From: Mesotaenium endlicherianum
Taxonomy: Eukaryota
Assembly: GCA_009602735.1 (NCBI GenBank)
Contig: WELA01003469.1
Coordinates: forward strand, 18,166 to 82,165
Direction of reading: 5' to 3'
Length of the DNA stretch: 64,000 bases
Positions 10,752-64,000 of this stretch are shown piece after piece. The notes under the pieces are model-generated. The model was given only the letters and a program-made list of their open reading frames with translations. It was not told the origin of the DNA and searched no databases. Position 1 is the stretch's first letter. Every line of letters begins with the position of its first letter. A program made the position numbers and the translations under genes.

Positions 10752-12830
10752 TGAAATAAATTGACTTACCAATAGGCTATTAACATTAAACAAAAGATTT
10801 TTATATCAGCATTAATCTTTATAGTAATTTTGCTCACCAATTTAACAGCAAAAGACAATACACTAGCGGTAGCTAATACTCATAAGTCAAATGCAAGTAA
10901 ACGAGCATCAATCATGTTGTAGTGATTTGAGTTATAATGTATTAGTTTGGTTTTATGTAAATGCTTTTGAAGATATTTGGAGTAGTATTGTGTGGATTCA
11001 AGTGTGAATAGATACTCTAGTGACTTGGTTTATGTCCTTTGAACCTTCCACGGCATTTTCAAAGTTAGAGGAAGGACCTAGAAGAACTCCATGTGGCAAA
11101 AGTCAAATGTGCCATTTTAGATCAAAAGGACATGTGTACATTATTCTAGAAAGAGGTGGCAAATTTTGGGATATGTTGGGTGCCAACACATCAACATGCA
11201 CCTTCCTAGAAATTACTTATGTAGCAAGTATATAGACAAGAGCTAGAACATAGAAAGGCATTCCAGAATCACCCTTGTACTTGCCTGAAATGAATCGACT
11301 TACCAATAGGCCATGTAGTGATTTGAGTTATAATATATTAGTTTGCATATACTTTCATGCTTTTGAATATATTTGGAGTAGTATTGTGTGGCGTCAAGTG
11401 TGAATAGATACTCTAGTGACTTGGTTCATGTCCTTTGAACCTTCTAAGGCATTTTCGAAGTTAGAGGAAGGACCTAGAAGAACTCCATGTGGCAAAAGTC
11501 AAATGTGCCATTTTTAGGTCAAAAGGACATGTGTACATTATTCTAGAAAGAGGTGGCAAGTTTTGGGATGTGTTGGGTGCCAACACATCAACATGCATTT
11601 TCCTAGAAATTACTTATGTAGCAAGTATATGAACAAGAGCTAGAACATAGAAAGACATTCGAGAATCACTCTTGTACTTGCCAAATTCAAGGCTAGGAGA
11701 CAGTGCATATCAATGGCTTCTCGCCTTGGATTCAGATCTCTCTCAGTAAGCAGTACAAGAGAGTTGGCCTCGTTTCCGAATGTCGAACTCGAGAGAAATC
11801 CTAGCATATGTACATGGAATGAGTATACTGTTCAACGGCCAATGCGATGGCACCGCCTACCCGGGCGTTAACCGCGTTGGTAGGACCTCGGTTAACCAAA
11901 TCCACCACCATCACCCATCATCCCGAATCGCCATCCATCCCAAGGATGTCATCTGGCCATTCATCTAGCACATCACACTTAGATTCATATCTAGGCACTT
12001 TGCTGCTACCGAGTACAAACGTCAGCTGGCTGTCAAAGAACGTGTCAGCAAGCTAATCTAAGTTGACTTCAGCTTGCTGCTCTCGGCTGAGTCATTAATC
12101 CGATTAGTTTATAAAGTCCAGCAGACTCAACATTAACTAAAGTTTAGCGGGCTGAACTTATTTAACTATTACATTTAAATGAATATACTGATTCATTACA
12201 ATCCCTCTAACTAAAATTGTTGTCGCCTCGACAACATTAAACTGTCAACTTATCTGGTCGGGGAACTAACAAAATTAACCCCCCATTGCTTGCCTCTTGC
12301 TTCAACACTATTGCCTAGCTGTGGGGATCACTAGTGACAGTGAACTGTCACCTCCACCCTCAGTCCACGTTTTGTGGGGTGCAAACAGAGAGACCTCCAG
12401 CAAGGCTTAACTGGAGGATGATTTTGATGTTTAGGGGGTTGTTCGTGGGACTTCAGGATCAGGAGAGTGAGATCTGGACCTAGATCTGGATAGCCCTCTA
12501 AGTCTGTTAGCTGGCCTTCTAAAAAACCCTGTTTGTTCTAAAATTGGGCCTCGAGGAGAACGTAGGACTGTAGCCTGCTCTTCAACCACCTGGGTGTTGA
12601 TGCCCACATAGAGGTGGTGGCCAGCATACCTCTCGCTACTCCGTGTGTCCCTCTTCTGGTACCCCTGTCCTCTGAAAATTTCGGCCTTTCTCTGTTGCCA
12701 AGAATAGTCAAATCAACTTCTTCCCCTGCTTGGGCAGGTGGACTGGGAGAACAAGTGCGGGGTCCTGTTGCCTCCATAATAGGGGTCACATTCTATACAC
12801 CTGATCTTGGCGCCCTAAGAGTCCCTGCTT
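10752..12830 (-). mobile_element. 3' end of a family-A element: ORF3 C-terminus, hairpin, PPT and an interrupted 3' LTR
   Basis: LTR 5' end (reverse complement of tgtaatgaat) at 12200, PPT-like atccctctaact next to it, hairpin tgttgtcgcctcgacaaca. The 12538-12789 peptide TGPRTCSPSPPAQAGEEVDLTILG matches ORF3. LTR 3' end at 10752. Confidence 0.85.
10918..11682 (+). repeat. Two ~370-bp direct repeats (10918-11285 and 11314-11682), probably the 5' part of a different LTR ('family B')
   Basis: Both start tgtagtgatttg and end cttgtacttgcc. They are separated by a 28-bp family-A LTR terminus. Confidence 0.8.
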
Positions 12831-12834
12831 CTGC

Positions 12835-13946
12835 CTTGTCATGATTTATTGTGTCGAGGTTGACGTACAAGACCAAGCTCCACTTGTGTGAACCATCAAC
12901 TTAGGAAGACTGACTTTGCATTGATCTTACGCATCCATATGTTGACCTTTTCTAGATTTTCCAAGTCACCAAAGTGTTCCAAGTCACCAAAGTGTAGCAC
13001 GTTAAAGCATCTTCCAAATGGCACCGGTTTCGCGTCATTTGGTTAAGTATCGAGCGAGATAGGCGCGATTTAGTCTGCACCCCTTCTTGCCCCTAGCGGA
13101 ATCACACCAAATGGCCAACTTGTGACTCAATGTACCCAAAGGTGACATTGTTGGCTATTTGTGACCCCAAGGACCCCTAGCTTTGTACGCACAATCCGCG
13201 AGCCCCTTAGCCTACAAAAATCTTGCATAGTAGTGCATCATTGAGGTTATAACTTGGTGACTGCATCACCTACTCCTAGAGGACGCTTCCTCAAGTTCCA
13301 GATTCACTTTTGAGGCACTATCTAGGTAGAATCACCCAAGGTAAGCTCCACCAATGAGAGACACATAGCATATTCTACGTGCTTTGCTTTGATTGATTTT
13401 GAGTTATGCTTAATCTATAGGAGTGCTAGTACATGCCTTGTACACATTAGTGGACATAGAACAGCCTCCTAGTGTGACTTCATGCATTGGATCCGCCGCA
13501 TACGACGCCGGGTTTCCAGAAGTATAAGTATTAGAGATGTCCTTAGAGGAACATCATTTTAGAAGTCCCATTATGCCAGTTTTAAGTCACAGAGGTTATC
13601 AGTAAAGCTTACACTTTCATCTCTTGTGTTTTAGAGACCACTTAGTCTCTCTCTTGTGAAGAGTAAGCCCTCCTGGCTTGCAAAATCTTGATGAACTTCA
13701 CAAGTGGTGAGCAAAGTCACAGCTTAAACCCTGCCAGAGGACTACTTTTGAAGATCATGATGTGCTTCGAGTGATCTTTTGGGCCAGACTTCATTAGTTG
13801 TTTTCCTACCAGATTACAGTCTTGAGGTGCTCACTTTGGAGAGTACACACTCCCGTACTTCTAAAATAATCTCTCTATGCCTGCACGCAAATAGAATCTT
13901 CAGCGTATGCCTACCCGTAGTGGACGTTCTTACCAGCCTTACTACA
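12835..13946 (+). mobile_element. Probable 3' part of the family-B LTR
   Basis: Ends ...TTACTACA, nearly the inverted repeat of TGTAGTGA at 10918/11314. 12880-13075 resembles 1290-1465 (gcgtcatttggtt...gagata). Confidence 0.45.
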
Positions 13947-16358: not shown

Positions 16359-17008
16359 TGGTGAAACGTTTTTAGCTTTTCGAGAGGATCTTTCCTCGGT
16401 ATTCAAGGAATATTTAAATAAAGTAGAAATAAAATCTATATACTTGTGCACATTGAGACATCCTCGAGAAAGCGAAAATGAAATCTAACGTAGAATGTGT
16501 GCTTGTGAGAGTTGCACTCACAATGACTCTGCAGGTATTTATACCTGCACGACGTGAGGCACTGGAGTGCTTCGGGTCACCACCTAGGGCACTACTTCAT
16601 GTCAACAAAAACAGGCGAAGGAGTACGACCCATTTTGGCTGAATGCTCGAAACGCGCCATTTGGCCTTTTGGAGACTTTTTGACGATTTCCGAAAATCCG
16701 TTTCGCGCCAAACGAGCGTTTTCGCGTTCTCGCGACTTTTCGAAAAGTCGCGATTGTTTGCGGAGTCGCGTACACATGCTTTTTGTCATGAACCGGTAGT
16801 TATAAAAACTACTGCGCCAATTGGTTAGGTGTGAACAGTCAAACGACAGGTCGCGGGCTCGATTTTGCTCCGATGCAAAGTCGCTTTGCATATTATGTGT
16901 CGTTTGACTTTTACGACTGTTTGTTCGTATTAACGACTGGTCGTAAATCCAAAATCTGTGACTGTGCATTATCCAAAATAATGACAATCAAAATAACTGA
17001 ATCAAACA
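16359..17008 (-). mobile_element. Possible solo LTR of a third family
   Basis: Minus strand starts TGTTTGA and ends TTTCACCA, with an internal TATAAATA followed by a CT-rich tract. It separates two unrelated truncated elements. No TSD seen. Confidence 0.4.
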
Positions 17009-17014
17009 ATGATT

Positions 17015-19398: not shown

Positions 19399-19399
19399 N

Positions 19400-30914: not shown

Positions 30915-30956
<42 letters not shown>

Positions 30957-46446: not shown

Positions 46447-47166
46447 TGTAATGAATCAGTATATTAGTGGATAAAATATTCATTTAAATATAATAGTTAA
46501 TTTAGTTCAGCCTGCTGAACTTTAGTTAATAGTCAGTCTGCTGGACTTTACATAATTATCAGTTTAATGACTCAGCCGGAAGCAGCAGGCTGAAGTCCAT
46601 ATAAGTCAGCTTGCTGACCCATTCTTTGACAGCCAGCTGACTTCCGTACTCGGTAGCAGCGAACTGCCTTGACTTACACCTAAGTACGATATGCTAGATG
46701 AATGGCCAGATGACATCCCTATGATGGATGGCTATTCGGGATGATGGGAGATGGCGGTGGATTTGGTTAACCGAGGTCCTACCAACGTGGTTAACTCCCG
46801 GGTAGGCGGTGCCATCGCACTGACCGTTGAACAGTAAACTCATTCCATGTACATATGCTAGGCATTGCTCTCGAGTTCGGCATTCAGAAACGAGGCCAAC
46901 TCTCTTGTACAGCTTACTGAGAGAGATCTGAATCCAAGGCGAGAAGCCATTGATACGCACTGTCTTCTAACCTTGCTTATGTATGAGTTTACTAATTTGC
47001 ATTATTGATGCTAGTTTACTCGCATTTGACTTACGAGTGTTATTCACTGCTAGTGTATTGTCCTTTGCCGTTTAACCAGTTAACGGAAATTACCATAAAG
47101 ATTACTTGCTGATATAAAGATCTTTATTAATTGTTAATCGCTTATTTGGTAAGTCGATTCATTTCA
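46447..47166 (+). mobile_element. Family-A solo LTR (720 bp) inserted in gag
   Basis: TGTAATG...CATTTCA flanked by TSD TATGG (46442-46446 and 47167-47171). The gag frame FRYG|LK resumes after it. Confidence 0.95.
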
Positions 47167-49150
47167 TATGGCCTGAAATACGAAGTCTCTGGTCATTTTG
47201 CTGAAAAGAAGTATGAGAAATTGGCTGACTTGATCCAGGATGCTGATGCTTGGGATCAGCAGCAGTTCAATCACAAGCGCCAGAGTAATGCTTTGGTGTC
47301 TAAGGTTGTCAAAAAGCCCCACAATTCCTACAATGCAATTGAAGGAGACCAGGCTGAGGATGATCAGGGTGATGAATATGCAGTCTAGAGGGAGAGGTGT
47401 TTTCTCTCGAGGCGACTATGGAAGAGGTGGTGGTAGGACTAAGCCGAGACCAACCTCAGCAAAATCTGTTTGCTTCCATTGCCAGCAATTGATCCACTTC
47501 AGAGAGCAGTGTCCAGTCAAGCACCTCCCAAAGGTCGAGAGAAATGACCAGCCTTTAAAAGACAGCAACAGTCAGTAATCTAGTCTACTGACTGTGAGGA
47601 TGCTAGAGATAGTGAGTCGTCACTAGCTGCCCTCGTAACAGGTATTATGGGTCCTGATGAACTGGATTTACTATGCATGCTTGACAACCAGATAAAGGAG
47701 ACCATCAGCAATATAGATCTCCAGAGAGTGCACACTCTGGATGATCTTGTTCCACCTGATGTCCAACATTTCTCTGCTAAGTCAGTAGAACAATGCGAAA
47801 GTCAGGAAAAGTCAGTCCCCCCTAAACTGCGAGACAGTTCTACAGCCATGTAGTATGCCAACATGGGCTACCCTCTAATATAATCTCAGACAGAGACTCA
47901 AAACTTACCTCTAAGTTATGGAGAGCTTTAATGGGGTTAATGGGAGTCAAACAGCTGCTCAGCACAGCAAACCACCCTCAGACTGATGAGCAGATTGAAA
48001 GAACTAACCGATTTCTGCAAGAGGTACTGAGAGCCTATCTTAACCAAAACAAGATAATTGGGATGACCTCTTACCTCAAATCCCGTTTGCGGTCAACCGT
48101 GCGGTGCACGCGTCAACGGGCAAGACTCCTTTTGAACTGAGCCTGGGTAGAGTCCCTAAGTCTCCTTTAGATGTACTAGGGGAGTCTTTATCTCACCCTG
48201 AAGAGATCTGGTCTCCCTCCAATTAACCCAAGAGTTTGCTGACACCCTGTCAGAAGTCCAACAGGAACCTGCACAAAGCCCAAGAAAACCAACAAAAATA
48301 CGCTACTCAGCACCGTTGAGAATTGACATTTTCTAAGGGCGATTTGGTCAAACTGCATTTTCAGCACCTGTACCAGCCTGGTGTGGTCAAGAAAAAGCTT
48401 GGTCCTGTCTGGGTCGGTCCATATTCTGTGGTGCGCCGTGTCGTTCAGATTGTTTACAAACTGAACATGTCAGCAGATTACAAGGTCACCCAGTCTTTAA
48501 TGTTTCCTTCCTGGAACCATATATTAAAGGTTACACATTGTTCACAGGTCGGTTACCTGTCCAACCGGGACCGGTCCCCGCTGTCCGGGATGGTAACCCT
48601 GAGGAATATGAGGTCGAGGACATTTTAGACGGTCGCTCTGTCCGTCTATCGTCTAAATATGTCATGAAGTACCTGGTCGGATGGAAGGGTTACGATGCCT
48701 CTGGGGACACTTGGGAATTTAAAGACCAGCTGACCAATGCCAAAGGGGCGTTGAAACGGTTCCACCTTCGGGCGGCTGGCACCCCTCCCTAATTGTCATT
48801 TCAGTGGACATGGACAGGTGACAGGAGGTCCGGTCTCCGTATAAGTCGCAGGGGAATGTGACAGTTAGTGACAGATAGTGATAGTCGTGACAAGCAGCCA
48901 ACCTTTATAATTAAGTTGGAGAGAGTGTGTTCGGTATCGGGATCAGCCAAGCGAATTTTATGACCATTCTACACACTCAACCTGCGCTCACACTCACTTT
49001 TTCTCTCTAACTCAATTCTCTCTTATACTCACTCAGACAAGATACTACACACTAGAGACTCTCCCTATCACGTTCTTCTTCACCACGGGCACTCAGTTGC
49101 GGCAAAGTGTCATGACTTCACTGACTGCATTGTGTTTATAATTGAGCAGG

Positions 49151-50424
49151 ATGACTCAAAAGTCGAAATTTAAGAGGAAGAGAAGAGCGGAAGAGGCACA
49201 TGCAGAATACTTGCAATTCCGTGGCGACATCAAATCATCCTCCATTGCCGCTTGGGAATCACAACGACTCCAACAACAGGGGGAGGCACAGAAGAAAGAG
49301 GAGGAGGAGGAACAAGCCAGATTGAGGCAGGAAGAACTAGACAGAAAAGCTACAGAGGAGGCCAAGAAGGAAGAGGAGGAGAGGCAAGTTGAGGAGAAGC
49401 GAAAGCAGCAGGCTGAAGATGAACAGAGGAGAATGAGCAGCTACCGCTACACAGTGCTGGGCAAGGGCTTTGATCTACTGGCGAAGGCCTTCAAGTATGC
49501 CCAGAGAAGTCGCAGTGAGTCACAGAAGGACATCCTGCAGAGGGAAGGGGAGACATCCCTATAGAGGTCAGCACAGGGCTCCTCCTCTACCACGATTATG
49601 CCAGGATGGTATGATATACAGTCACAGAGTCGAAGGCCCTGGCCCAAGTGAATGAGGCAGGAGCCGTATCGATTCCAGGTATTTGGGGGGAAAATAGGGT
49701 GATCCCCACGGACGCGGCCAGCTTTAAACACTCTACATCCCATAACAGGTTCAAGGCCATGTATAATGAGGTGGAGAGGAGGAGCTGGGAGTTCTTGGCC
49801 AAAGAAATCAGTCAGCTGGACTTCGCAGGGCATTGGTACCCGTGTACTCTGAAAAGGACAAACCCTGCCTTTATCCAGAAGCCCACCGATTGGCGAAGGA
49901 TGACCATCAATATGAGGGGCCAGCAGAATGACAGGGCAGGGGAGGAAGATTTCCTTACAGACTTACAGGAGAACATAGTGTTGCCTCCTCACATTGCAGC
50001 TTGGGACCCAAGATTGGATGGGGTAAGGGACTGTATGAGTCAAGAAATGCAGCAGGATAGGAGCAGGGCCCGCGAGGCATTCTCTAAAGGGAAGCACTCT
50101 TATGCCAAATGGGCAAGCAAGCAGTGAGAGAAAGACTTGTATAAGGTCAGGACTCAAGAGCCTCCACCAGCACCCAAAAGGGGAAGGTCGGTGGATAACT
50201 CTTTTTCTCGGGCAGAGCTGGAGCACCTGACAGAGGAGATCCCAGCAGTCTCAGAGAAGCCGGGGGAAGAAGAGGAGGAGTCAGAGGAAGAAGAGGAGGT
50301 TGACGAGAAAGAGGACACTAGCCCCGCTGTGACCCAGACACCTGCCACATCCCCTGTAATAGAGAAGACAAAGTTGGCCAGGGCAGACACAGCTCTGCAC
50401 CAGCTCGCTGAAGAGGAAGATATC
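49151..50424 (+). pseudogene. Diverged ORF3 homologue of the older element, interrupted at 50424 and continuing at 59377
   Basis: Shares YRYTV, YNEVERRSWE.LA, HW.PC.L, PTDWR.MT, LPPHIA.WDPRL.G and FSKGKH with the intact ORF3. Confidence 0.85.
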
Positions 50425-51222
50425 TGTAATGAATCAGTATATTAGTAGATATAATATTCAGTTAAATATAATAGTTAATTTAGTTCAGCCTGCTGGACTT
50501 TAGTTAGTAGTCAGTTTGCTGAACTTTAGTTAGTAATCAGTCTGCTGGACTTTAGTTAGTAGTCAATCTGCTGAACTTTAGTTAGTAGTCAGTCTGCTGA
50601 ACTTTAGTTAATTATCAGTTTAATGACTCGGCCAAAAGCAGCAGGCTGAAGTCAACTTAAGTCAGCTTGCTGACACATTCTTTGACAGCCAGCTGACTTC
50701 CGTGCTCGGTAGCAGCGAACTGCCTTGATATGCATCTAAGTACCACCTGCTAGTTGAATGGCCAGATGACATCCCCATGATGGATGGCTATTCGGGATGA
50801 TGGGAGATGGCGGTGGATTTGGTTAACCGAGGTCCTACCAACGTGGTTAACTCCCGGGTAGGCGGTGCCATCGCACTGACCGTTGAACAGTAAACTCATT
50901 CCATGTACATATGCTAGGCATTGCTCTCGAGTTCGGCATTCGGAAACGAGGCCAACTCTCTTGTACAGCTTACTGAGAGAACTCTGAATCCAAGGCGAGA
51001 AGCCATTGATACGCACTGTCTTCTAACCTTGCTTATGTATGAGTTTACTGATTTGCATCATTGATGCTAGTTTACTCGCATTTGACTTACGAGTATTATT
51101 CCCTGCTAGTGTATTGTCCTTTGCCGTTTAACTAGTTAACGGAAATACCATAAAGATTACTTGCTGATATAAAGATCTTTATTAATTGTTAATCGCCTAT
51201 TTGGTAAGTCGATTCATTTCAG

Positions 51223-51234
51223 TGGTATCGGAGC
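51223..51234 (+). promoter_or_regulatory. Primer-binding site, tRNA-iMet type
   Basis: TGGTATCGGAGC lies 1 nt after the LTR and differs at one base from the plant consensus TGGTATCAGAGC. Confidence 0.9.
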
Positions 51235-51255
51235 AGTTATCACAGTCTTCTTTGT

Positions 51256-52734
51256 ATGGTAAGGACAAGGTCTCAAACTAGCAACTCCCGAGACATGGAG
51301 AACCAGGATAACGAGAATGTCGAAAACCAGGCGGAAAGCCATGTAGCGGGAAACCGTACCTATTCGGAAGCAGTAGCGGATACTGCAGCTAGGGAGGCTG
51401 CAGATGAGGCAGCTGCTATTGCCTCAGTCGCAGCTCAGCAAGCTGAGGAGGAGATAGCCAGACTAGAAGCTGAACAAGTAGCAAAGGCCGCTGAAGATAT
51501 ACAAAGGAGGGAAGGACAGCCAGCTGACGAGCGCACTGTTGAAGAACTTATGGCATCAAGGGCCAATGTTCTGAACCCACCTCCTGCCGTACAACTCAAT
51601 GTACCCCTAGGTCAAATACGTGACCGGCTGAATGCGGCAGGAATTGCTGCTGCAGGAGCAAGAGGGATTGTTGAGGACACTACTCAGCGAGTAGATGCCA
51701 ATGCTGCTGCTGCATTTGCTAATCTACCACCCCAAAATGTAGACTTGGGAGCATTGTTCGTTCAGATGCAGTCGCAAATGGCGACCATGTATCAGTCCCA
51801 GCAGGAGGACAAAAGAATCATAATGTCCCTACTCCGGGACAGAGACCAACTGGGGTCTCACACCACTAGTGGTGGTGGCCGAGGGCCTAGTAAGCCCAAG
51901 CCGAAACCTCCCCAGGACTATGATCCTGAGGGAAACAGAAAATATTACCTGATCAAGTTTCTCGCGGATGTTGAGCAGTGGCTGGAGAACTACCCAGAAC
52001 TGCAAGATTACGAGAAGGTCAGGCACACCGGTGCGCTACTGAAAGGCAGTGCCGCAGACTGGTGGCTTTACTGGAAGGAAGAGCGTAAGGCTCGGCAACT
52101 CGGTGACCCTACGTGGGTAGAGTTTGTCGAGAAGTTGCATGAGAAGTTTGATGTCATCAACCAGCAGGAGAAAGCTATCTATGCGATGATCTCCCTGACA
52201 CTGAAGCAGACCACTTCAGTTGCTGAGTTTGCTCAAAAGTTCCAAGAGAACATGATGAAGCAGCCTGATTTGCCAGAACGGTATAGGATAGCATACTTCA
52301 GGTATGGCTTGAAATCCGAGGTCTCTGGTCATTTTGCTGAGAAAAAGTATGAGAAACTGGCTGACTTGATCCAGGATGCTGACGCCTGGGATCAGCAGCA
52401 GTTCAATCACAAGCGCCAGAGTAACGCTTTGGTGTCTAAGATTGTCAAAAAGCCCCACGGTTCCTACAATGCAGTTGAAGGAGACCAGGCTGAGGATAAT
52501 CAGGGTGATGAATATGAGTATGAGTACAATGCTATTCAGTCTAGAGGTAGAGGTGGTCCCTCTCGAGGTGGCTATGGAAGGGGTGGTGGTAGGACTAAGC
52601 CGAGACCAGCCTCAGCAAAATCTACTTGCTACCATTGTCAGCAGAAAGGCCACTACAGAGAACAGTGTCCGGTCAAGCACCTGCCTAAGGTCGAGAGAAA
52701 AGACCAGCCTTTAAAAGACAGCAACAGTCAGTAA
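51256..52734 (+). CDS. gag: Gag, 492 aa
   Basis: Capsid-like LKGSAADWW...[16 protein letters not shown] tract, CCHC knuckle [14 protein letters not shown]. Confidence 0.95.
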
Positions 52735-55700
52735 TCCAGTCTACTGACTGTGAGGATGCTAGAGATAGTGAGTCGTCACTAGCTGCCCTCGTAGCAGGTA
52801 TTATGGGTCCTGCTGAACTGGATTCACTATGCATGCCTGACAACCAGATAAAGGAGACCATCAGCAATATAGACGTCCAGAGAGTGCACACTCTGGATGC
52901 TCTTGTTCCACCTGATGTCCAACATTTCTTTGCTACGTCAGGAGAACAATGCGAAAGTCAGGAAAAGACAGTCCCCCCTATCCTACTGCATTGCATGATT
53001 GCAGGTAGGAAGGTGAGGGCATTTGTTGACGGAGGGGCGTCACATACTTTTATCCACAAGGACTTAGTTAAGCGGCTAAGGCTGCCTACTGTCACCCAAG
53101 GGAATAGAAAAATATTCCTTGGAGATGCCTCAAGTATCCCGGGAGGAGTTATAACCAAGCCTATTGAGGTCCAGTTAGGTTCTGGCATTGCAGTTCTAAC
53201 TGAAACGCTTACATTTGAGGTACTCAACACTGGCTTTTATGATCTCGTGCTAGGCAGGTCCTGGCTTAATAGACATCAAGCTGAAGTGTGTTGGAGCAGA
53301 GGTACAGTTAAAGTGAGAGGAGCCAGTGATGGGCAGACTGACTTGGCACCCACCAGTGCTCTTCCTCTTGTCCTGTGTGGATGGCAAATGAAGGAAAAGA
53401 AGAGGCTTCCAGAAGGATGCAAGTTGCTGAATGCAATGGAGTTCGTCAAAAGCTGGAACCAGAAGGAAGACAGAATGTTCTGTCTGCTGCTAAGAGAGGT
53501 ACCTCCTCAACCTGAAGAAGTGGTTGAGAAAAAGGTACACCCTCCGGAACACCCTACTGCTGCAAACATTGTTGCTCAGTACACGGATGTGTTTAATATG
53601 CCTCCAGGACTACCCCCTAAGCGGGAAGTAGATCATAGGATTGATTTATTACCTGGTAGCCAGCCACCCTGGCAACGCACGTATGGCTTGTCTTATTTGG
53701 AGAGTGAGGAGTTGAAAACACAGATTGCAGAGCTGGAGGAAAATGGTTACATTTCTCCCAGTAAATCACCGTACGGCGCACCTATCCTATTTGTTAAGAA
53801 AAAGGATGGCAGTATGCGGATGTGTGTGGATTACAGAGCCCTGAACAGAATTACAGTAAAGAACAAGTATGCTTTACCCAGAATCGAGGACTTGCTTGAT
53901 ACCCTGTCTGGCGCTAAGGTGTTCAGTAAGATAGATCTCAAGAGTGGTTATCATCAAATCAGAATTGCTGAGGGGGATGAACACAAGACTGCTTTCCGCA
54001 CACGTTATGGACACTATGAGTTCAACGTGATGCCATTTGGACTGACTAATGCTCCTGCTACCTTTATGGGTGCTATGAATGACATTTTCAGACCTTATTT
54101 GGATAAGTTTGTGCAAGTTTTCCTGGATGATATTTTAATTTTCTCTAAAGATGAAGCTCAGCACACTGAACACTTAAAGAAAGTGCTGGACACTCTGCGG
54201 AAAAATCACTTGTATGCTAAAATGAGCAAGTGTGATTTCTTTAAGGAAAGTATTGAATTCTTAGGCCACGTTGTCAGTAAAGAGGGCATCAGTGTGGATC
54301 CTAAGAAAGTCCAGACCATAAGGGACTGGCCAGTACCACAGTCTGTCTCTGAAGTTAGATCCTTCCTCGGGTTGGCTAACTACTATAGGAGATTTATTGA
54401 GAATTATTCCACAAAGGCCAGTAAACTGACTGACCTTACTAAGAAAGACATCGGGTATGTGTGGGGGGAAGAGCAGCAGGCTGCCTTCCAGACCCTTAAA
54501 GATGCCCTTTGTTCTGCCCCAGTGCTAGCCGTGTATGACCCCAGCAAACCGGTGCAGGTGGTTACTGATGCCTCTGATTTTGCCATGGGTGCTATTTTGT
54601 TGCAGCCTGCTGACAAAACCACAAAGGATGGTAAGGTACGGCAGGAGTGGCATCCTGTGTTGTATGAGTCTATGAAATTTAATCCAGCGGAGATTAATTA
54701 CTCAGTGCATGATAAAGAGCTGCTAGCTATCATTCATGTACTCAAACAGTGGAGAGCATACTTACATGGTAAAGCTTTTAAGGTGATTACAGATCATCTA
54801 GCTCTGACCCACTTTCAGAAGAAGTCCAAGCTGTCGAGGAGGGAGAACCGCTGGAGCCAGATGCTGGAGCAGTTCCAAGTCCAGATCGACTACAAACCAG
54901 GGAAGTTGAATCCTGCTGATGCACTCTCTAGAAGACCTGACTTGCAAGAAAGGAACTTTAGTCAGCATACTGTAGATAAAGTCCTGTGTGCACTCACTTC
55001 ACTAAAGGTGAAAAAGTCCTTCCTTGAACAACTTAGGAAAGCCTACCTTTCTGACCCAACATTTGAGCCCAGCCCCACTACTGGTATGTGTCGTGCTACC
55101 GCACTCGGGTATAAGCTCAAGGGAGGGGTCTGGGTGACTGAAACCACTTCAGGCAGGCTGAAGCTGGTCATTCCTAATAATTTGGAAATAAGGTCTCTCT
55201 TACTGAGTCAAGCTCATGACAGTCTCCTGGGTGGACATTTGGGGCAGGCCAAAACTGTTGGCAAACTGGCAAAACATTATCATTGGGAGGGGTTACCCCG
55301 GGAGGTCTTGAAATATGTCAAGTCCTGTGACCAGTGTCAGAGAAATAAGTCTCGGCACACACCACCCGGAGGTCTCTTGCAACCGCTACCCATCCCAGCG
55401 GGACGCTGGGAAACTATATCCATGGACTGGGTGGTCTCACTACCAAGAACTGCCAACGGGCATGATTCAATACTGGTAGTCGTGGATAAACTGACAAAAA
55501 TGGTCATTTTTATCCCCACAACTGTCAAAGTGACTGCACTCGAAACAGCGAGACAGTTTTACAACCATGTAGTATGCCAACATGGGCTCCCTTCTAATAT
55601 CATCTCAGACAGAGACTCAAAATTCACCTCTAAGTTCTGGAGAGCTTTAATGGGGTTAATGGGAGTCAAACAGCTGCTCAGCACAGCAAACCACCCTCAG

Positions 55701-56519
55701 ACTGATGGGCAGACTGAAAGAACTAACCGAGTTCTGCAGGAGGTGCTGAGAGCATATATTAACCAAAAACAAGATAATTGGGATGACCTGTTGCCTCAAA
55801 TTCAGTTTGCGGTCAACAGTGCGGTGCACGCGTCAACGGGCAAAACTCCTTTTGAACTCAGCCTGGGTAGAGTCCCTAAGTCTCCTCTAGATGTGCTAGG
55901 GGAATCTTTAACTCACCCTGAAGGGATTGACAACCCGGTCTCCCTCCAGTTAACTCAGGAGTTTGCTGACACCCTGTCAGAAGTCCAACGAAACTTGCAC
56001 ACGGCCCAAGAAAACCAACAAAAATACGCTAATCAACACCGTCGGGAACTGACATTTTCCAAGGGGGATTTAGTCAAACTGCATTCTCAGCACCTGTACC
56101 TCCCTGGTGTGGTCAAGAAAAAGCTTGGCCCTGTCTGGGTCGGTCCATATTCGGTGGTCCGTCGTGTCGGTCAGAATGCTTACAAACTGAACATGTCAGC
56201 TGAATACAAGGGGCACCCGGTCTTTAATGTCTCCTTCCTGGAACCGTACATCAAAGGTGATACACTGTTCACAGGTCGGTTCCCTGTCCAACCGGGACCG
56301 GTCCCCGCTGTCCGGGACGGCGACCCTGAGGAATATGAGGTCGATGAGATTTTAGACGCTCGCTCGGTCCGTCGATCGTCTAAATATGTCATGAAATACC
56401 TCATTCGATGGAAGGGTTACGATGCCTCTGGGGACACTTGGGAGTTTAAGGACCACTTGACCAATGCCAAAGGGGCGTTGACACGGTTCCACCTTCGGGC
56501 CGCTGGAGTCCCTCCATAA
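52689..56519 (+). CDS. pol: Pol: protease, RT, RNase H, integrase, chromodomain
   Basis: VDGGASH (PR); MPFGLTNAP and FLDD (RT); TDAS and DKELLA (RH); H-H-C-C, DDE and GPY (INT); YEVDEIL...YLIRWKGY...DTWE (chromodomain with aromatic-cage residues). First ATG at 52803. Confidence 0.97.
52710..52823 (+). promoter_or_regulatory. Predicted -1 ribosomal frameshift signal
   Basis: T_TTA_AAA in the gag frame, 7-nt spacer, perfect 10-bp stem at 52724-52751. pol is in the -1 frame and open from 52689. Confidence 0.8.
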
Positions 56520-56786
56520 CTGTCATTTCAGTTGACACGGGAAGGTGACAGGCGGTCCTGTCTCCATTTAAGTTGGAGGGGAAAATATATGACAGTTAGT
56601 GAGCGAGAGCGATAAAAACACACTCATACGTTTATGTGTAGCGCATCGCAACTACGTCAACTTTTAGCAATCATCCTGTAAGGTAAACAGCAGCGAAGCC
56701 ACTATACTAAATACTAACATACTTCCTGCAATCCCTATGACAAAGGTCCATATCCTACTAACTTGTGCCCTGGTTACATGTGCAGG

Positions 56787-58463
56787 ATGGCGCCCACCAC
56801 ACAAAAGGAGGACAGAAAGCGCAAGGCAGAAGAAGCCAGGAGGACAATGGAGCAATACCAGAAGGAGCTGGCGGCGACGTCCCTCACCAGGAGAGAACAA
56901 GAAAGGGTCCGCAAACAACAAGAGGCGGCAGAAGAGGCACAGAGGAAGAAGGATCAGGAAGCGGAAAACCTCAGGAAGGCTGAGGAGGAGAGACAGAAGA
57001 AACAGCAAGAAGAAGCGGCAGCGGCAGAAGAGGAGAAAAGAAAAAAGATTGAAGCGGACAGACAGAAGAGCTTGGCCACTTACAGGTATACTGTGGTGGG
57101 TGGCCAAAACTTCGATAACCTGAAGGAAGCATTGCTGGCAGCCCAGGAGATCAACAGGCTGGAACAGACAACACTGCTACAGAAGGAAGGAGCTACAGCA
57201 CTGGACAGGTACATCGAGACACACACCGGCGTGGTCCTTTACGAAGATTATGCTAAGATGGTGGGCTATACAGCAGAGCAGGCCCGGTATCTCGCAGATG
57301 ATTCAGAGGACAAGCCGGTCCCCATACCGGGAATAGTGGGAGATCAGAGACTCATCCGGATGGTGAGCATGCGGCCCGATAGCTTTAAGGATACGGTATT
57401 CTACCTCACACTCCTGCCAGCTTACAATGAAGTTGAGAGAAGGAGCTGGGAGTACTTGGCCAGGGAAGCAGGACAGCAGATGTTCTCTCCCCACTGGTTC
57501 CCGTGTAAACTGAGGAAGGCTGAGCACGGACCCCAGTACTACCAGCAGCCAACAGACTGGAGGTGGATGACCGTCACAAATAAGAAGCAGGAGTGTGACC
57601 GAGCCCAACCGGATGACTTCCACTATGGCCTAGACGGCTATCTCATCCTACCACCTCACATTGCCCCTTGGGACCCCAGGCTGAATGGATGCCTGAGCAA
57701 TATGAATGCAGAGACCAAGGAACATAGGAGGAGGGGAAGAGACTACTTCTCTAAGGGAAAGCATGCCTTTGTCAAATGGGCAAAGAATGCAGGCCGGATA
57801 GATATCAGTAGGCTGAAGGCCAAGCAACCTCCAGCGCGCCCTAAGAAAGGGAGGTCGGTAGACTACTCCATGTCTACTAGGGAGCAGGACGACTTAGTGG
57901 ACGAGACCCCTACTCTCTCCGAGGAGGAGGATGAGGAGGCTGAGGAAGAAGAACAGGGCAGAGGAGAAGCATCAGCAGCAGGTACTCAGGATACCCAGGG
58001 ACAGGTAGGGGCGCTTCTTAAAGAACCACGATCAGGTGTTTGGAATGTGATCCCCGTTATGGCGACTACTGGACCCCGCGCTCGCTCCCACAGCCCACCT
58101 GCCCAAGCAGGGGAAGAAGCTGATCTGACTGTATTGGGCAGCAGACACAGGCAGAAATCCCCAGAGGACAGGGGTGCCAGAAGAGGGACACGCGGGTGGG
58201 CCAGAGGTATGCCAGCCTCCCCCTCCGCTCAGGGGCATGTACCTCTAGCCAATGTATTTCAGCATCCTACTGGAATGCCTGTCTATGTGGGCATCAACAC
58301 CCAAGTGGTTGAAGAGCAGGCTACCATCCTTCGTTCTCCTCGAGGTCCAACTTTAGAGCAAACCGGGTTCTTTAGAAGGCCAGCTGACAGACCTAGAGGG
58401 CTGTCCAGATCTAGGTCCAGATCTCCGTCCCCTGATCCTGAAGCCCCAGGAACCACCCCTTAA
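56787..58463 (+). CDS. ORF3: extra sense-strand retrotransposon protein of unknown function, 558 aa
   Basis: Intact ORF between pol and the PPT. Charged coiled-coil N-terminus, conserved central domain, acidic and RS-rich tail. Homologues at 49151, 63327 and about 12440-12830. Confidence 0.88.
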   Translation: MAPTTQKEDRKRKAEEARRTMEQYQKELAATSLTRREQERVRKQQEAAEEAQRKKDQEAENLRKAEEERQKKQQEEAAAAEEEKRKKIEADRQKSLATYRYTVVGGQNFDNLKEALLAAQEINRLEQTTLLQKEGATALDRYIETHTGVVLYEDYAKMVGYTAEQARYLADDSEDKPVPIPGIVGDQRLIRMVSMRPDSFKDTVFYLTLLPAYNEVERRSWEYLAREAGQQMFSPHWFPCKLRKAEHGPQYYQQPTDWRWMTVTNKKQECDRAQPDDFHYGLDGYLILPPHIAPWDPRLNGCLSNMNAETKEHRRRGRDYFSKGKHAFVKWAKNAGRIDISRLKAKQPPARPKKGRSVDYSMSTREQDDLVDETPTLSEEEDEEAEEEEQGRGEASAAGTQDTQGQVGALLKEPRSGVWNVIPVMATTGPRARSHSPPAQAGEEADLTVLGSRHRQKSPEDRGARRGTRGWARGMPASPSAQGHVPLANVFQHPTGMPVYVGINTQVVEEQATILRSPRGPTLEQTGFFRRPADRPRGLSRSRSRSPSPDPEAPGTTP

Positions 58464-58540
58464 GGTGACAGGCTGAAAAGATAGTCAGTAAGGGAGGCTG
58501 GTCAGGGTCAGTTTCTTTATTTAAAGCTTTTGCAGTTTAA

Positions 58541-58576
58541 TGTTGTCGAGGCGACAACAACTTAAGTTGGAGGGAT
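58541..58576 (+). promoter_or_regulatory. Hairpin and polypurine tract before the 3' LTR
   Basis: TGTTGTCG-AGG-CGACAACA stem-loop followed by ttaagttggagggat|TG. Confidence 0.8.
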
Positions 58577-60114
58577 TGTAATGAATCAGTATATTAGTAG
58601 ATATAATATTCAGTTAAATATAATAGTTAATTTAGTTCAGCCTGCTGGACTTTAGTTAGTAGTCAGTTTGCTGAACTTTAGTTATTAGCCAGTCTGCTGG
58701 ACTTTACCTAATTAGTCAGACTGCTGGACTTTACATAATTAGTCAGTCTGCTGGACTTTACATAATTATCAGTTTAATGACTCAGCCGGAAGCAGCAGGC
58801 TGAAGTCCATATAAGTCAGCTTGCTGACCCATTCTTTGACAGCCAGCTGACTTCCGTACTCGGTAGCAGCGAACTGCCTTGATATGCATCTAAGTGCGAT
58901 ATGCTAGATGAATGGCCAGATGACATCCCTATGATGGATGGCTATTCGGGATGATGGGAGATGGCGGTGGATTTGGTTAACCGAGGTCCTACCAACGTGG
59001 TTAACTCCCGGGTAGGCGGTGCCATCGCACTGACCGTTGAACAGTAAACTCATTCCATGTACATATGCTAGGCATTGCTCTCGAGTTCGGCATTCGGAAA
59101 CGAGGCCAACTCTCTTGTACAGCTTACTGAGAGAGATCTGAATCCAAGGCGAGAAGCCATTGATACGCACTGTCTTCTAACCTTGCTTATGTATGAGTTT
59201 ACTGATTTGCATTATTGATGCTAGTTTACTCTCATTTGACTGACGAGTAGTATTCCCTGCTAGTGTATTGTCCTTTGCCGTTTAAACGAGTTAACGGAAA
59301 TACCATAAAGATTACTTGCTGATATAAAGATCTTTATTAATTGTTAATCGCCTATTTGGTAAGTCGATTCATTTCAATATCACTTGGCTGGGGATTGCCA
59401 GGGGACAAAGCTCAGTTGCAGGCGCAGAGACCCAGTCAGTTAGGGTAGACAGAAGGGCTGCCAGAGAAATAGCCAGAGGCCTGCCAGCATCTCCCTTGCA
59501 GAGAGGACATTTGCCATTGGCTCATGTCATGCAATATCCTTTTGGAATGCCGGTATATGTACCTGTCAGTTTGAGGGATGCCCAGGAGAAGGCTGCTTTT
59601 CTTCAGTTTCAAACTGTGTAGGAGAAAACAGCCCAGTTACTACGTTCTCCCCTTGGTTCCCCCTACTCGGAGCCCCCAGGCTTCAGGAGACCCTAAGACA
59701 GAAGCAGGAGGTGTGGCTCTCAGTCTCGCTCCCCTAATTGTAGAGCCCCAGGAACATCTCCTTCATAAGAACAGTAGGCTGAGAGGAAGGAGACCAATAC
59801 TCAGTTGGGAAAAAACATGTACCCAATGTTAGTGTTGTCGAGGCGAAAACTTGTTAAGTTGGAGGGATTGTAATGAATCAATATATTGGTAGATATAATA
59901 TTCATTTAAATATAATAGTTAAATAAGTTCAAGCTGCTGAACTTAGTTAGTATTGAGCCTGCTGGACTTTGTATAATTACCAGTTTAATGACTCAGCCGG
60001 GAGCAGCAGGCTAAAGTAAACTAGGTCAGCTTGCTGACACATTCTTTGCCAGCCAGCAGCTGCCTTTCGAACTCGGTAGCAGCGAACTGCCTAGATATGC
60101 ATTCAAGTGTGGTG

Positions 60115-63100
60115 TGCTCACTACACGGATGTATTTAATATGCCTCCAGGACTACTCCCTAAGAGGGAAGTAGATCATAGGATTGATTTATTACCTGGGA
60201 GTCAACCACCCTGGCAACGCACATATGGCTTGTCTTATGTGGAGAGCGAGGAGTTGGAAACACAGATTGCAGAGCTTGAGGAAAATGGTTATATTTCTCC
60301 CAGTAAATCACCTTACGGCGCACCCATCCTATTTGTTAAGGAAAAGGATGGCAGTATGCAAATGTGTGTGGATTACAGAGCTCTGAACAGAATTACAGTA
60401 AAAAACAAGTATGCCTTACCCAGAATCGAGGACTTGCTTGATACCCTGTCTGGTGCTTAGGTGTTCAGTAAGATAGATCTCAAGAGTGGCCATCATCACA
60501 TCAGAATTGCTGAGGGGGATGAACACAAGACTGCCTTCCGCACACGTTATGGACACTATGAGTTCAACGTGATGCCATTTGGACTGACTAATGCTCCGCG
60601 ACCTTCATGGGTGCTATGAATGACATTTTCAGACCTTATTGGATAAGTTTGTGCAAGTTTTCCCGGATGATATTTTAATTTTCTCTAAAGATGAAGCTCA
60701 GCACGCTGAACACTTGAACACAGTCATGGCCACTCTGAGAAGAAATCACTTATATGCTAAAATGAGCAAGTGTGATTTCTTCAAAGAAAGTATTGAATTC
60801 TTAGGCCACGTCGCCAGTAAAGCAGGCATCAGTGTGGATCCTAAGAAAGTCCAGACCATAAGGGACTGGCCAGTACCACAGTCTGTCTCTGAAGTTAGAT
60901 CCTTCCTCGGGTTGGCTAACTACTATAGGAGATTTATTGAGAATTATTCCACAAAGGCCAGTAAACTGACTGACCTTACGAAGAAAGACATAGGGTATGT
61001 GTGGGGGGAAGAGCAGCAGGCTGCCTTCCAGACCCTTAAAGATGCTCTTTGTTCTGCCCCGATGCTAGCCGCGTATGACCCCAGCAAACCGGTGCAGAAG
61101 GTCACTGATGCCTCTGACTTTGCCATGGGTGCTATTTTGTGGCATCCTGCTGACAAAACCACAAAGGATGGTAAGGTATGGCAGGAGTGGCACCCTGTGT
61201 TGTATGAGTCTATGAAATTTAATCCAGCGGAGATTAATTACTCAGTGCATGATAAAGAGCTGCTAGCTATCATTCATGTGCTCAAACAGTGGAGAGCATA
61301 CTTACATGGTAAAGCTTTTAAGGTGATTGTAGATCATCTAGCTCTGATTCACTTTCAGAAGAACTCCAAGCTGTCGAGGAGGGAGAACCGCTCGAGCCAG
61401 ATTCTGGAGCAGGTTCAATTCCAGATCGACTACAAACCAGGGAAGTTAAATCCTGCTGATGCACTCTCTAGAAGACCTGACTTGCAAGAACGGAACTTTG
61501 GTCAGCATGCTGTAGATAAAGTCCTATGTGCACTCACTTCACTAAAGGTGAAAAAGTCATTCTTTGAACAACTTAGAAAAGCCTACCTTTCTGACCCAAC
61601 ATTTGAGGCCAGCCCCACTACTGGTATTGAGTCAAGCACATGACAGTTTACTGGGTGGGCCTTTGGGGCAAGCCAAAACTGTTGGCAAACTGGCAAAACA
61701 CTATCATTGGGAGCAATTACCCCGGGAGGTCTTGAAATACGTTGTCCTGTGACCAGTGTCAAAAGAATAAGTCTAGGCACACACCACCGGGAGGCCTCTT
61801 ACAACCGCTGCCCATCCCAGCTAGCCGCTGGGATACAATATCCTGGGACTGGGTGGTCACACTGCCACGAACTGCCAATGGGCATGATTCGATATTGGTA
61901 GTCGTGGGTAAACTGACAAAAATGGTCATTTTCATCCCCACAATTGTCAAAGTAACTGCACTCGAAACAGCGAGACGGTTCTACAACCATGTAGTATGCC
62001 AACATGGGCTACCCTCTAATATAATCTTAGACAGGGACTCGAAATTTACCTCTAAGTTCTGGAGGGCTTTAATGGGGTTAATGGAAGTCAAGCAGCTGCT
62101 CAGCACAGCAAACCACCCTCAGACTGATGGGCAGACTAACCGAGTCCTGCAAGAAGTACTGAAATCTTATATTAACCAAAAACAAGATAATTGGGATGAC
62201 GTGTTACCCCAAATCCAATTTGCGGTCAACAGTGCGGTGCACGCGTCAACGGGCAAGACTCCTTTTGAACTAAGCCTGGGTAGGATCCCTAAGTCTCCTT
62301 TGGATGTCTTAGGGGAGTCTTTAACTCACCCTCAAGGGACTGACAATCCGGTCTCCCTCCAGTTAACTCAGGAGTTTGCTGACACCCTGTCAGAAGTCCA
62401 ACAAAACTTGCACAAAGCCCAAGAAAACCAACTAAAGTATGCTAATCAGCACCGTCGAGAACAAACCTTTTCTAAGGGCAATTTGGTCAAACTGCATTCT
62501 CAGCACCTGTACCTCCCTGGCGTGGTCAAGAAAAAGCTTGGTCCTGTTTGGGTCATTCCATATTCGGTGGTGCGCCGTGTCGGTCAGATCACTTACAAAC
62601 TGAACATGTCAACAGAATACAAGGGTCACCCGGTCTTTAATGTTTCCTTCCTTGAACCCTACATCAAAGGGGACACACTGTTCACAGGTCGGTTACCTGT
62701 CCAACCGAAACCGATCCTCGCTGTCCGGGACGGTGACCCTGAGGAATTTGAGGTTGAGGAGATTTTAGACGCGCGCTCGGTCCGTCGATCGTCTAAATAT
62801 GTCATGAAGTACCTCATTCGATGGAAGGGTTAGGATGCCTCTGGGGACATTTGGGAATTTAAGGACCATTTGACCAATGCCAAAGGGGCGTTGAAACGGT
62901 TCCATCTTCGGGCGACTGGAGCCCCTCCATAACTGTCAATTCAGTTGACACGGGAAGGTTCTAGGCGGACCTGTCTCCATTTAAGTTGGAGGGGAAAATA
63001 TATGACAGTTAGTGTGCGAGAGCGAGAAAGGAACAGTTATGTAAACCCTAAGTGTCAGCATAGTGACAGATGGGACAGCCTGGCCAACATAACGCACCTT

Positions 63101-63644
63101 GGGCAGAAGGAAAATGGGCCTCACACAGCAATACATCACTTAACGCACCTTCAAACACATTCATATGTTTATGTATAGTGCACCGCAACTACGTCAACTC
63201 TTAGCAATCACTTGCTAAGGTAAACAGAGGCAAATCCACCATACTAATACGAACATACTTCCTGCCTGCAATTCCTATGACAAAGGTCGATATCCTACTA
63301 ACTTGTGCCCTGGTTACATGTGCAGAATGGCTTTCACCACACACAAGGAGGACAGAAAGCGCAAGGCAGAAGAAGCCAGGAGGACAATGGAGCAATACCT
63401 GAAGGAGCTGGCGGCGACGTCCCTCACCAAGAGAGAACAAGAAAGGGTCCGCAGACAACAAGAGGCGGCAGAAGAAGCACAGAGAAAGAAGGATCGAGAA
63501 GCGGAAAATCTCAGGAAAGCTGAGGAGGAGAGACAGAAGAAACAACAAGAAGAAGCGGCAGCGGCAGAGGAGGAGAGAAGGAAAAAGGCTGTAGCGGACA
63601 GGCAGAAGAGCTTGGCCACTTACGGGTATACTGTGGTGGGTGGC
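60115..63644 (+). mobile_element. Third, degenerate family-A internal region (RT to chromodomain, and the 5' part of ORF3 from 63327), fused to a truncated LTR
   Basis: Close match to 53575-57104 with stops, frameshifts and a deletion at about 61627. The LTR-pol junction has TGCT microhomology. Confidence 0.9.
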
Positions 63645-64000
63645 TGTAATGAATCAGTATATTAGTAGATATAATATTCATTTAGATGTAATAGTAAATT
63701 AAGTTCAACCTGCTGAACTTTAGTTAAATTATCAGTTTGCTGGACTTTATATTTAATAACAGTTTAATGACTCAGACGGATGCAGCAGGCTGAAGTCAAC
63801 TTAAGTCAGCTTGCTGACACATTCTTTGACAGCGAGCTGACTTCCGTACTCGGTAGCAGCGAACTGCCTCATATGCATTTAAGTGTGGTAGGCTAGATGA
63901 ATGGCCAGATGACATCCCTATGATGGATGGCCATTCGGGATGATGGGAGATGGCGGTGGATTTGGTTAATCGAGGTCCTACCAACGTGGTTAACTCCCGG
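63645..64000 (+). mobile_element. Family-A LTR inserted in ORF3, running off the window
   Basis: TGTAATGAATCAG starts at 63645 and interrupts YTVVGG. Confidence 0.92.

What the first reader, a model, noticed from the sequence alone, without database searches (positions are those of the whole stretch)
56700..58463. Chromovirus with a third, non-env ORF apparently expressed from a spliced subgenomic RNA
Seen: a canonical branch point TACTAAC (56756-56762) and acceptor TGCAG|G lie directly before the ORF3 ATG (56787). The same geometry occurs in the third copy (63296-63327). It also occurs in the diverged older element (CACTGAC...GCAG|GATG, 49119-49153), whose surrounding spacer is otherwise unalignable. 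A consensus donor G|GTAAGT sits near the 3' end of the LTR (51204), upstream of the PBS, and GTAAGT is kept in most LTR copies. Known: retroviruses and errantiviruses express env this way. Inference: this family makes a PBS-less, ORF3-only mRNA. ORF3 has no evident signal peptide or transmembrane helix, so it would be an accessory or regulatory protein, not an envelope.
Basis: partly seen in the sequence, partly recalled or inferred. Interest (0 to 1): 0.9.

Follow-up and report, generated by a model that had tools for sequence, protein, structure and literature searches.

The report
Retrotransposon with swappable, spliced accessory gene
A jumping gene, probably of a plant-lineage host, carries a third gene with no known relatives in two anciently diverged versions that both start one base after a splice-acceptor signal, so it is likely made from a spliced message and is predicted to act in the nucleus, although the RNA reads examined were too few to show the splice.

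Summary
An intact chromodomain Ty3/gypsy element (50425-59376) carries a 558-aa ORF3 with no homologue in any library searched and no hydrophobic segment. ORF3 is a real gene: dN/dS is 0.19-0.36 between copies. The window holds two ORF3 types, 45% identical in protein (dS about 2), on gag/pol backbones with dS about 0.3, so the cassette was probably swapped. Both types start one base after a branch point plus CAG, and only the three ORF3 starts, of 2131 ATGs, show this (chance 0.5-4% for the independent copy). The acceptor is therefore credible. The donor is not settled: GTAAGT in U5 is kept in 7 of 8 LTR ends, but so is the rest of the LTR end, and a rival donor lies in the spacer. No junction was listed in five RNA runs, but coverage there was 0-3 reads. 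Extra 3' ORFs in chromoviruses, spliced non-envelope third genes (Cer1 CERV) and LTR-located donors (foamy viruses) are each known. New here are the orphan protein, the conserved acceptor and the cassette swap. Verdict: new variant of a known kind; 0.9 is too high.

The parts
50425..51221 (+). 5' LTR of the intact element (797 nt, TG...CA), with a 26-nt tandem array near its 5' end
   Evidence: 95.5% to 3' LTR; 96.9% without the array; target duplication ATATC on both sides
51203..51209 (+). Candidate splice donor G|GTAAGT, 18 nt before the LTR end and upstream of the primer site
   Evidence: use not shown
51223..51234 (+). Primer binding site, initiator-Met tRNA type (assignment recalled, one base off the usual plant form)
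   Evidence: no 8-mer self-primer match in the LTR
51256..52734 (+). gag, 492 aa (Ty3 capsid, CCHC knuckle)
52711..52750 (+). Likely -1 frameshift signal: T TTA AAA followed by a predicted 10-bp hairpin
   Evidence: inference
52713..56519 (+). pol frame: protease, RT, RNase H, integrase, SH3/GPY-F, chromodomain
   Evidence: Chromo E 2e-8, above cut-off; best hit Ty3 Gag-Pol
56568..56581 (+). Internal copy of the polypurine tract just after pol; left edge of the swapped cassette
   Evidence: reads and contigs of other copies diverge at 56580-56582
56680..56688 (+). Rival donor AAG|GTAAAC in the spacer (would give a 103-nt intron)
   Evidence: kept in third copy (63220); last base C>T in an X5 contig; no counterpart in the older spacer
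56756..56762 (+). Branch point TACTAAC
   Evidence: unchanged in the X5 contig that spans it
56781..56786 (+). Acceptor TGCAG|G, one base before the ATG
   Evidence: X5 contig differs at 56781-2 but keeps CAG
56787..58463 (+). ORF3, 558 aa: basic N-terminus and Lys/Glu-rich helix (1-95), conserved aromatic-rich core (96-345), basic then acidic tract, Pro-rich tail ending in an Arg/Ser repeat
   Evidence: no family or homologue
58562..58576 (+). 3' polypurine tract; right edge of the cassette lies about 40 nt before the LTR
58577..59376 (+). 3' LTR (800 nt), with the second GTAAGT at 59359
49119..49153 (+). Older element: branch point CTGAC, acceptor GAGCAG|G and ATG 49151
49151..50424 (+). Older-type ORF3, 5' part: broken by a frameshift and stops, cut by the intact element's insertion; continues after 59376
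63296..63644 (+). Third copy: branch point, acceptor TGCAG|A and ORF3 start (93% to intact), cut by an LTR at 63645
12431..12819 (-). Fragment of an ORF3 3' end, keeping the Arg/Ser tail

Best explanation
This is an intact chromodomain Ty3/gypsy retrotransposon whose third reading frame is a gene under purifying selection, present in two anciently diverged versions that were likely exchanged as a cassette, and it is likely expressed from a spliced RNA that joins a donor, most likely the one at the LTR end, to the acceptor one base before its start codon, giving a protein predicted to be a nuclear regulator and not an envelope. Shown: element anatomy, selection on ORF3, the two types, the acceptor geometry in both, no membrane segment. 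Inferred: use of the acceptor (about 0.75); the LTR donor given splicing (about 0.6), which would drop the primer site, gag and pol so that the message is not reverse transcribed; exchange by template switching near the two polypurine tracts. Most likely job (about 0.3, untested): a Rev- or CERV-like factor that lets unspliced genomic RNA, which then carries strong splice sites, leave the nucleus. The basic N-terminus, coiled-coil-like helix and Arg/Ser tail fit this; an anti-silencing role is nearly as likely.
For: dN/dS 0.30 (106 codons, intact vs third, p 0.012), 0.19 (229 codons, core vs older), 0.28, 0.30, 0.36 in other segments. ORF3 dS 2.0-2.3 against gag 0.26 and pol end 0.31 for the same pair of elements; identity falls to shuffle level just after the internal polypurine tract and returns 40 nt before the LTR. 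Acceptor geometry at 3 of 2131 ATGs, all ORF3; chance 0.5-4% for the independent copy. An exon of a host BRCT gene (Pfam) is preceded by GAGCAG like the older ORF3, and other inferred host acceptors end in GCAG (junctions inferred from frames, not from reads). GTAAGT occurs only at the LTR ends of the element. With the LTR donor no upstream ATG reads into ORF3: the five ATGs examined in the last 380 nt of the leader all stop by 51133. Reads with third-copy letters at 5 of 9 variant places, 7 of 9 at third codon positions, show ORF3-family RNA exists. Precedent: Cer1 CERV (PMC10309623, passages); foamy donor in the LTR (PMC3694450, abstract).
Against: No joint 51203-56786 in the three raw RNA runs laid on a stretch holding both sites (only joint listed: 55993-56283, not GT-AG). 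No joint and no listed loose end at 56786 in three raw runs (13 of 14 loose ends shown). Depth on the presumed sense strand is 0 over 56700-56779 and starts at 56796 or later (X16 about 3, X17 1-2, X18 0), which fits an RNA start near the ATG as well as clipped reads of variant copies. X10 and X13 have no depth over 56735-57264. Contigs of X1 and X5 span the acceptor unspliced (they may be DNA). LTR GTAAGT is no better kept than the LTR end itself and is lost in 1 of 8 ends. Sixteen other sites score as well as donors. The host BRCT gene shows CTRAC in only 2 of 5 inferred acceptors, about 49 nt away. Nothing was found that bears on ORF3's function: both models are unusable (pLDDT 34 and 37).
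Confidence: 0.45

Rival explanations
1. ORF3 has its own promoter in the spacer, perhaps a relic of an ancestral LTR (polypurine tract followed by TG), and is expressed either unspliced or after removal of a short 103-nt leader intron from the spacer donor at 56683.
For: Internal polypurine tract plus TG after pol. AAG|GTAAAC kept in intact, third and X5 copies. Presumed-sense depth starts at 56796 or later with none over 56700-56779. One presumed-sense fragment lies at about 56616-56685 in X16.
Against: The older spacer has no such donor within 300 nt of its acceptor. No TATA-like site in either spacer by simple scan. No joint 56682-56786 listed (low depth).
Confidence: 0.25
2. The acceptor is used, but with another donor: AG|GT just after the pol stop (56545, 48818, 62958), the one right after the gag ATG (51259), or one within gag or pol.
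For: Seventeen sites score 7 or more of 9. Errantivirus env is spliced from at or near the gag start.
Against: The 51259 donor would put the gag ATG out of frame with ORF3 (from the sequence). The post-pol site lies in generally conserved sequence and is weak in the third copy.
Confidence: 0.12
3. The LTR GTAAGT serves integration-end or U1-dependent poly(A) control, the acceptor-like motif is a relic or chance, and ORF3 is translated by another route (reinitiation, internal entry).
For: LTR end conserved as a block. In foamy viruses U1 binding at the LTR donor suppresses polyadenylation (PMC3694450, abstract; a section heading says independent of splicing). No junction seen. Chance up to 4% under the loosest test.
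Against: The same spacing survives in an unalignable spacer across dS of about 2. A third cistron 6 kb into an RNA is hard to translate by scanning (general knowledge).
Confidence: 0.14
4. ORF3 is an envelope-like or movement protein.
For: It sits where env sits and is probably spliced like env.
Against: No hydrophobic segment, signal-like N-terminus or glycosylation sequon; 3 Cys. No Pfam or PDB match to fusion proteins.
Confidence: 0.04

Closest known systems
Plant chromoviruses with extra ORFs (REXdb; PMC6317226, passages and supplement 5)
   Same: [quoted passage not shown]
   Different: The table lists no extra ORFs for Tcn1, Chlamyvir, Galadriel, Reina, CRM or unclassified chromoviruses. 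This element has an aromatic-cage-type chromodomain (residue positions recalled from HP1), which that paper limits to non-seed plants, and overlapping gag/pol. The passages seen give no expression route.
Cer1 CERV of C. elegans (PMC10309623, passages)
   Same: Gypsy-type element with a non-envelope ORF between pol and 3' LTR, no homologue outside its host group, made from a spliced mRNA; it exports unspliced genomic RNA.
   Different: CERV's ORF is the C-terminal half of a protein whose first half comes from upstream and has a Cys finger. Here the ORF has its own ATG one base after the acceptor and no Cys cluster. No sequence comparison with CERV was run.
Barley Bagy-2 and other plant env-like 3' ORFs (PMC7264820, part 1 of 3; the primary paper PMC311225 is not held)
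   Same: Plant Ty3/gypsy with a sense 3' ORF and reported splicing.
   Different: Athila-type non-chromoviruses; some of those proteins have transmembrane domains, this one has none.
Foamy viruses (PMC3694450, abstract; PMC7828637, passages)
   Same: Major splice donor inside the LTR, so spliced messages lack the primer site (the last step is my inference from the donor's position).
   Different: Retroviruses with env. Their donor is upstream of the poly(A) signal; here it is 18 nt from the LTR end, probably downstream of it (read starts at 50936 and 50950 hint at RNA 3' ends there; library strand assumed).
Errantiviruses (bioRxiv 2023.08.03.551782, passages) and rotifer ORF3s (PMC5408684, passages)
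   Same: Third ORF as a separate spliced unit; some rotifer ORF3s are non-envelope.
   Different: No chromodomain in the rotifer elements; errantivirus env takes its start from the upstream exon; rotifer ORF3s have recognisable enzyme domains.

Membership tests
Ty3/gypsy LTR retrotransposon | LTRs with TG...CA ends, target duplication, primer site and polypurine tract | tested here: met
Ty3/gypsy LTR retrotransposon | Domain order gag, protease, RT, RNase H, integrase | tested here: met
Chromovirus | Chromodomain at the integrase C-terminus | tested here: met
   Pfam Chromo 34.4 bits against cut-off 25.1 at pol 1208-1260
Chromovirus | Placement in the chromovirus lineage and a named clade by RT-RH-INT tree | not testable with these tools
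   No named reference set was available; REXdb sequence files too large to read
Tcn1 clade | Self-priming instead of a tRNA primer site (83% of members) | tested here: not met
   tRNA-type site present; no 8-mer complement in the LTR. 5% of Tcn1 use tRNA-Met, so this lowers but does not exclude membership
Envelope-bearing elements (errantivirus, env-like ORFs) | Signal peptide and transmembrane anchor in ORF3 | tested here: not met
   Highest KD19 0.73; charged N-terminus; hydropathy only, no dedicated predictor
Elements with a spliced subgenomic third-gene RNA | Acceptor signals before ORF3, conserved across copies | tested here: met
   3 of 3 ORF3 starts in the window and the X5 contig
Elements with a spliced subgenomic third-gene RNA | Junction reads | tested here: inconclusive
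   None listed in five raw RNA runs; 6-24% of each run read, depth 0-3, listing needs 3 reads
Rev/CERV-like export factors | Nuclear protein needed for export of unspliced RNA | not testable with these tools
   Only composition (basic motifs, Arg/Ser tail)

The most novel reading that the evidence does not exclude
A non-seed plant-lineage chromovirus runs a complex-retrovirus programme: a foamy-like donor inside the LTR makes a primer-site-free message for an orphan nuclear regulator that controls the fate of its own genomic RNA, and this regulator exists as anciently diverged alleles exchanged as a cassette between two polypurine tracts, as would be expected in an arms race with host silencing.
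Probability: 0.2. Interest if true: 0.8.

Novelty: new variant of a known kind. Interest (0 to 1): 0.52.

Why it matters
Thousands of extra ORFs are known in plant retrotransposons, but how they are expressed and what they do is mostly open. Here an intact element, a precise predicted junction (51203 to 56786, rival 56682 to 56786) and two divergent protein types that mark the constrained residues make both questions testable with one RT-PCR and one tagging experiment. If true, spliced non-envelope regulators would extend to a chromovirus group for which the plant reference table lists no extra ORFs, and accessory genes would be shown to move between backbones as cassettes.

Tried and rejected
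No whole genome is held, so only the copies in the window and laid runs could be compared. No RNA holder listed in the run index. ORF3 homologue searches were all blank: whole protein and residues 95-360 in the 5.8-billion set, lengths 306-977 only, so fused or short forms were not searched; 266-aa core against 1.84 billion representatives, 0 at E 0.001; viral and metagenome contigs with the protein and the 2-row alignment; Pfam only a coiled-coil-type hit below cut-off; PDB sequences best E 0.4-1. Gag also found nothing in the 5.8-billion set, so these blanks partly reflect poor sampling of this host group and do not prove that ORF3 is unique. Exact look-up of 6 proteins: none held. ESM Atlas gave no answer. 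AlphaFold2 models with 1 and 2 rows were unusable (pLDDT 34.3, 37.4); Foldseek on the second gave nothing at E 0.001 and is uninformative. PHROGs was not run successfully. The pol-end dN/dS of 2.8 came from a wrong frame; corrected to 0.19. The 25730 LTR row is offset by 2 nt. The X17 peak at 56920-57050 comes from reads with foreign sequence before 56928-56932, so it was not counted as evidence on the acceptor. Leader trans-splicing was considered and dropped: no sign in reads, and not known to me in this host group (recalled). The second read-laying run did not cover the older-type acceptor, which is untested in RNA. Paper searches for a chromovirus with a spliced third gene or an LTR donor listed no direct case; most subscription papers, including Steinbauerova 2011 and Vicient 2001, were not readable. 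REXdb supplements 1 and 3 were too large and may list per-element extra ORFs that bear on novelty.

Full report
Anatomy. The finding lies in an intact LTR element at 50425-59376: LTRs of 797 and 800 nt, 95.5% alike, a 5-nt target duplication ATATC, a tRNA-type primer site at 51223, gag (492 aa), an overlapping pol frame with protease, RT, RNase H, integrase and chromodomain, then a 267-nt spacer and a 558-aa ORF3. It is inserted in the ORF3 of an older family member, whose ORF3 starts at 49151 and resumes after 59376. A third copy has its ORF3 start at 63327, cut by another LTR at 63645, and a 3' fragment lies at 12431-12819 on the minus strand. The host is probably a streptophyte without seeds: the window holds a BRCT-domain gene and a DUF7950 gene (its plant distribution is recalled), and the chromodomain seems to keep the aromatic cage (positions recalled) that PMC6317226 limits to non-seed plants (passages). 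The species was not determined.

ORF3 is a gene. Every comparison between copies shows purifying selection: dN/dS 0.30 over 106 codons against the third copy (Fisher p 0.012), 0.19 over 229 core codons and 0.28 over 129 N-terminal codons against the older copy, 0.30 and 0.36 against the minus-strand fragment; gag and pol give 0.14-0.24. In RNA reads and one contig, 7 of 9 variant places in ORF3 are third positions and 5 of 9 match the third copy. The protein has no hydrophobic segment and no detectable relative, but Gag found no relative in the largest set either, so sampling is poor.

Two types and a cassette. Intact and older elements are 89-90% alike in LTR, gag and pol end (dS 0.26-0.31), yet their ORF3s are 45% identical in protein with dS 2.0-2.3 (near saturation, so imprecise). 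Similarity drops to shuffle level just after a copy of the polypurine tract that follows pol (56568) and returns about 40 nt before the 3' LTR. Reads and contigs from other copies break off at 56580-56582. The simplest reading is that two old ORF3 lineages ride on one backbone family and are exchanged by recombination near the two tracts. This is inference from one pair of elements. An earlier AI note reports a similar swap for an antisense gene in another genome (e1-8590810); I did not check it and it is not support.

The acceptor. All three ORF3 starts have a branch point 25-26 nt before the exon start, a CAG, one base and the ATG. No other of 2131 ATGs in the window has this. Since the pattern was drawn from these sites and two copies are 89% alike in the spacer, the real test is the older copy with its unalignable spacer: chance is 0.4-0.6% for the exact offset and about 4% within 10 nt. 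An X5 contig with 8 changes in 172 spacer bases keeps both signals, which alone is weak. Host acceptors inferred in the BRCT gene end in GCAG, including GAGCAG as in the older ORF3, though only 2 of 5 show a CTRAC, at about 49 nt. I judge use of the acceptor at about 0.75.

The donor. GTAAGT occurs only at the LTR ends of the element and in 7 of 8 LTR ends in the window, but the last 12 nt, which integrase needs (general knowledge), are about as conserved. Seventeen sites upstream of the acceptor score 7 or more of 9 on a simple consensus, among them AAG|GTAAAC at 56683, kept in the third copy but absent from the older spacer. The LTR site is the only perfect hexamer shared by both types' backbones, and it leaves ORF3's ATG free of overlapping upstream frames, so I rank it first at about 0.6 given splicing.

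RNA. Five raw RNA runs of one species label were laid, 6-24% of each. The element is barely transcribed in them, with mostly presumed-antisense reads over the pol end. No joint from the LTR to 56786 was listed in X10, X13 or X16; no joint or loose end at 56786 in X16, X17 or X18 (13 of 14 loose ends shown). Presumed-sense depth is zero over 56700-56779 and reaches about 3, 1-2 and 0 just inside ORF3. Listing needs three reads, and reads from third-type copies would be clipped near 56795 and 56804, so the test is underpowered. It leans slightly against a long abundant leader and does not decide. Library strand was assumed, not checked. Most reads are 90-99% alike to this copy, so they come from other copies or a related strain.

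Mechanism. Best reading: transcription from the 5' LTR; unspliced RNA serves as genome and as gag/pol message (a likely -1 frameshift site with a hairpin lies at 52711); a share is spliced from 51203 to 56786, losing primer site, gag and pol, and gives ORF3. An element with such sites must get unspliced RNA out of the nucleus. ORF3 has a basic N-terminal motif in both types, a long charged helix, a conserved aromatic core, a second basic motif and an Arg/Ser tail kept in the minus-strand fragment. I therefore put a Rev- or CERV-like role first (about 0.3), anti-silencing next; both are untested, and structure prediction gave nothing.

Comparison. Forward 3' extra ORFs occur in 18% of Tekay chromoviruses, and none are listed for the other chromovirus clades (PMC6317226 supplement 5, read whole). 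Splicing of a 3' ORF is reported for barley Bagy-2 (PMC7264820, part 1 of 3), called typical for LTR-element ORF3s (PMC5408684, passages) and mapped for errantiviruses (bioRxiv 2023.08.03.551782, passages). A spliced non-envelope regulator is known from Cer1 (PMC10309623, passages; PMC12786077, passages), and a donor within the LTR from foamy viruses (PMC3694450, abstract and outline). PMC11728184 (passages) describes nuclear, largely disordered extra-ORF proteins in sunflower Tekay elements. PMC7828637, PMC1142308 and PMC3350952 were seen as passages. Seven searches listed no chromovirus with a spliced third gene, within the library's limits.

Verdict. Observation confirmed; interpretation partly supported. 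It works like a complex retroelement with a spliced accessory gene, it is a chromovirus by domain, and it is not an envelope-bearing element. New variant of a known kind, interest 0.52.

Noticed in passing
window 52711-52750: Slippery site T TTA AAA at the gag/pol overlap followed by a predicted perfect 10-bp hairpin: a likely -1 ribosomal frameshift signal.
   Followed up: partly
window 44644-64000: At least three insertions of this family into itself (solo LTR in gag at 46447, intact element in the older ORF3, LTR in the third ORF3 at 63645), two of them inside ORF3.
   Followed up: partly
window 50425-51221 vs 58577-59376: LTRs differ at 39 columns, clustered in the tandem array and near 50742-50754, while all three ORFs are open; this suggests recombination between LTR variants more than age.
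   Followed up: no
window 56568-56581, 62981, 48911: Copy of the 3' polypurine tract right after pol; could also serve as a second plus-strand primer.
   Followed up: partly
window 55400-56580: Presumed antisense RNA over the 3' end of pol in X10 and X16, from a copy with a different spacer.
   Followed up: no
window 28584-39345: Host gene with long low-complexity exons ending in tandem BRCT domains (Pfam on the exon at 36729); introns inferred only.
   Followed up: partly
window 40736-42370 minus: Single-ORF host gene, 544 aa, with a C-terminal DUF7950 domain.
   Followed up: no
window 13800-23400: Two similar blocks about 5.2 kb apart, each with a decayed minus-strand copy of this family and part of another element with an aspartyl protease ORF (15186-15737).
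   Followed up: no
window 6922-8442: Degenerate tandem array with a period of about 190 nt.
   Followed up: no
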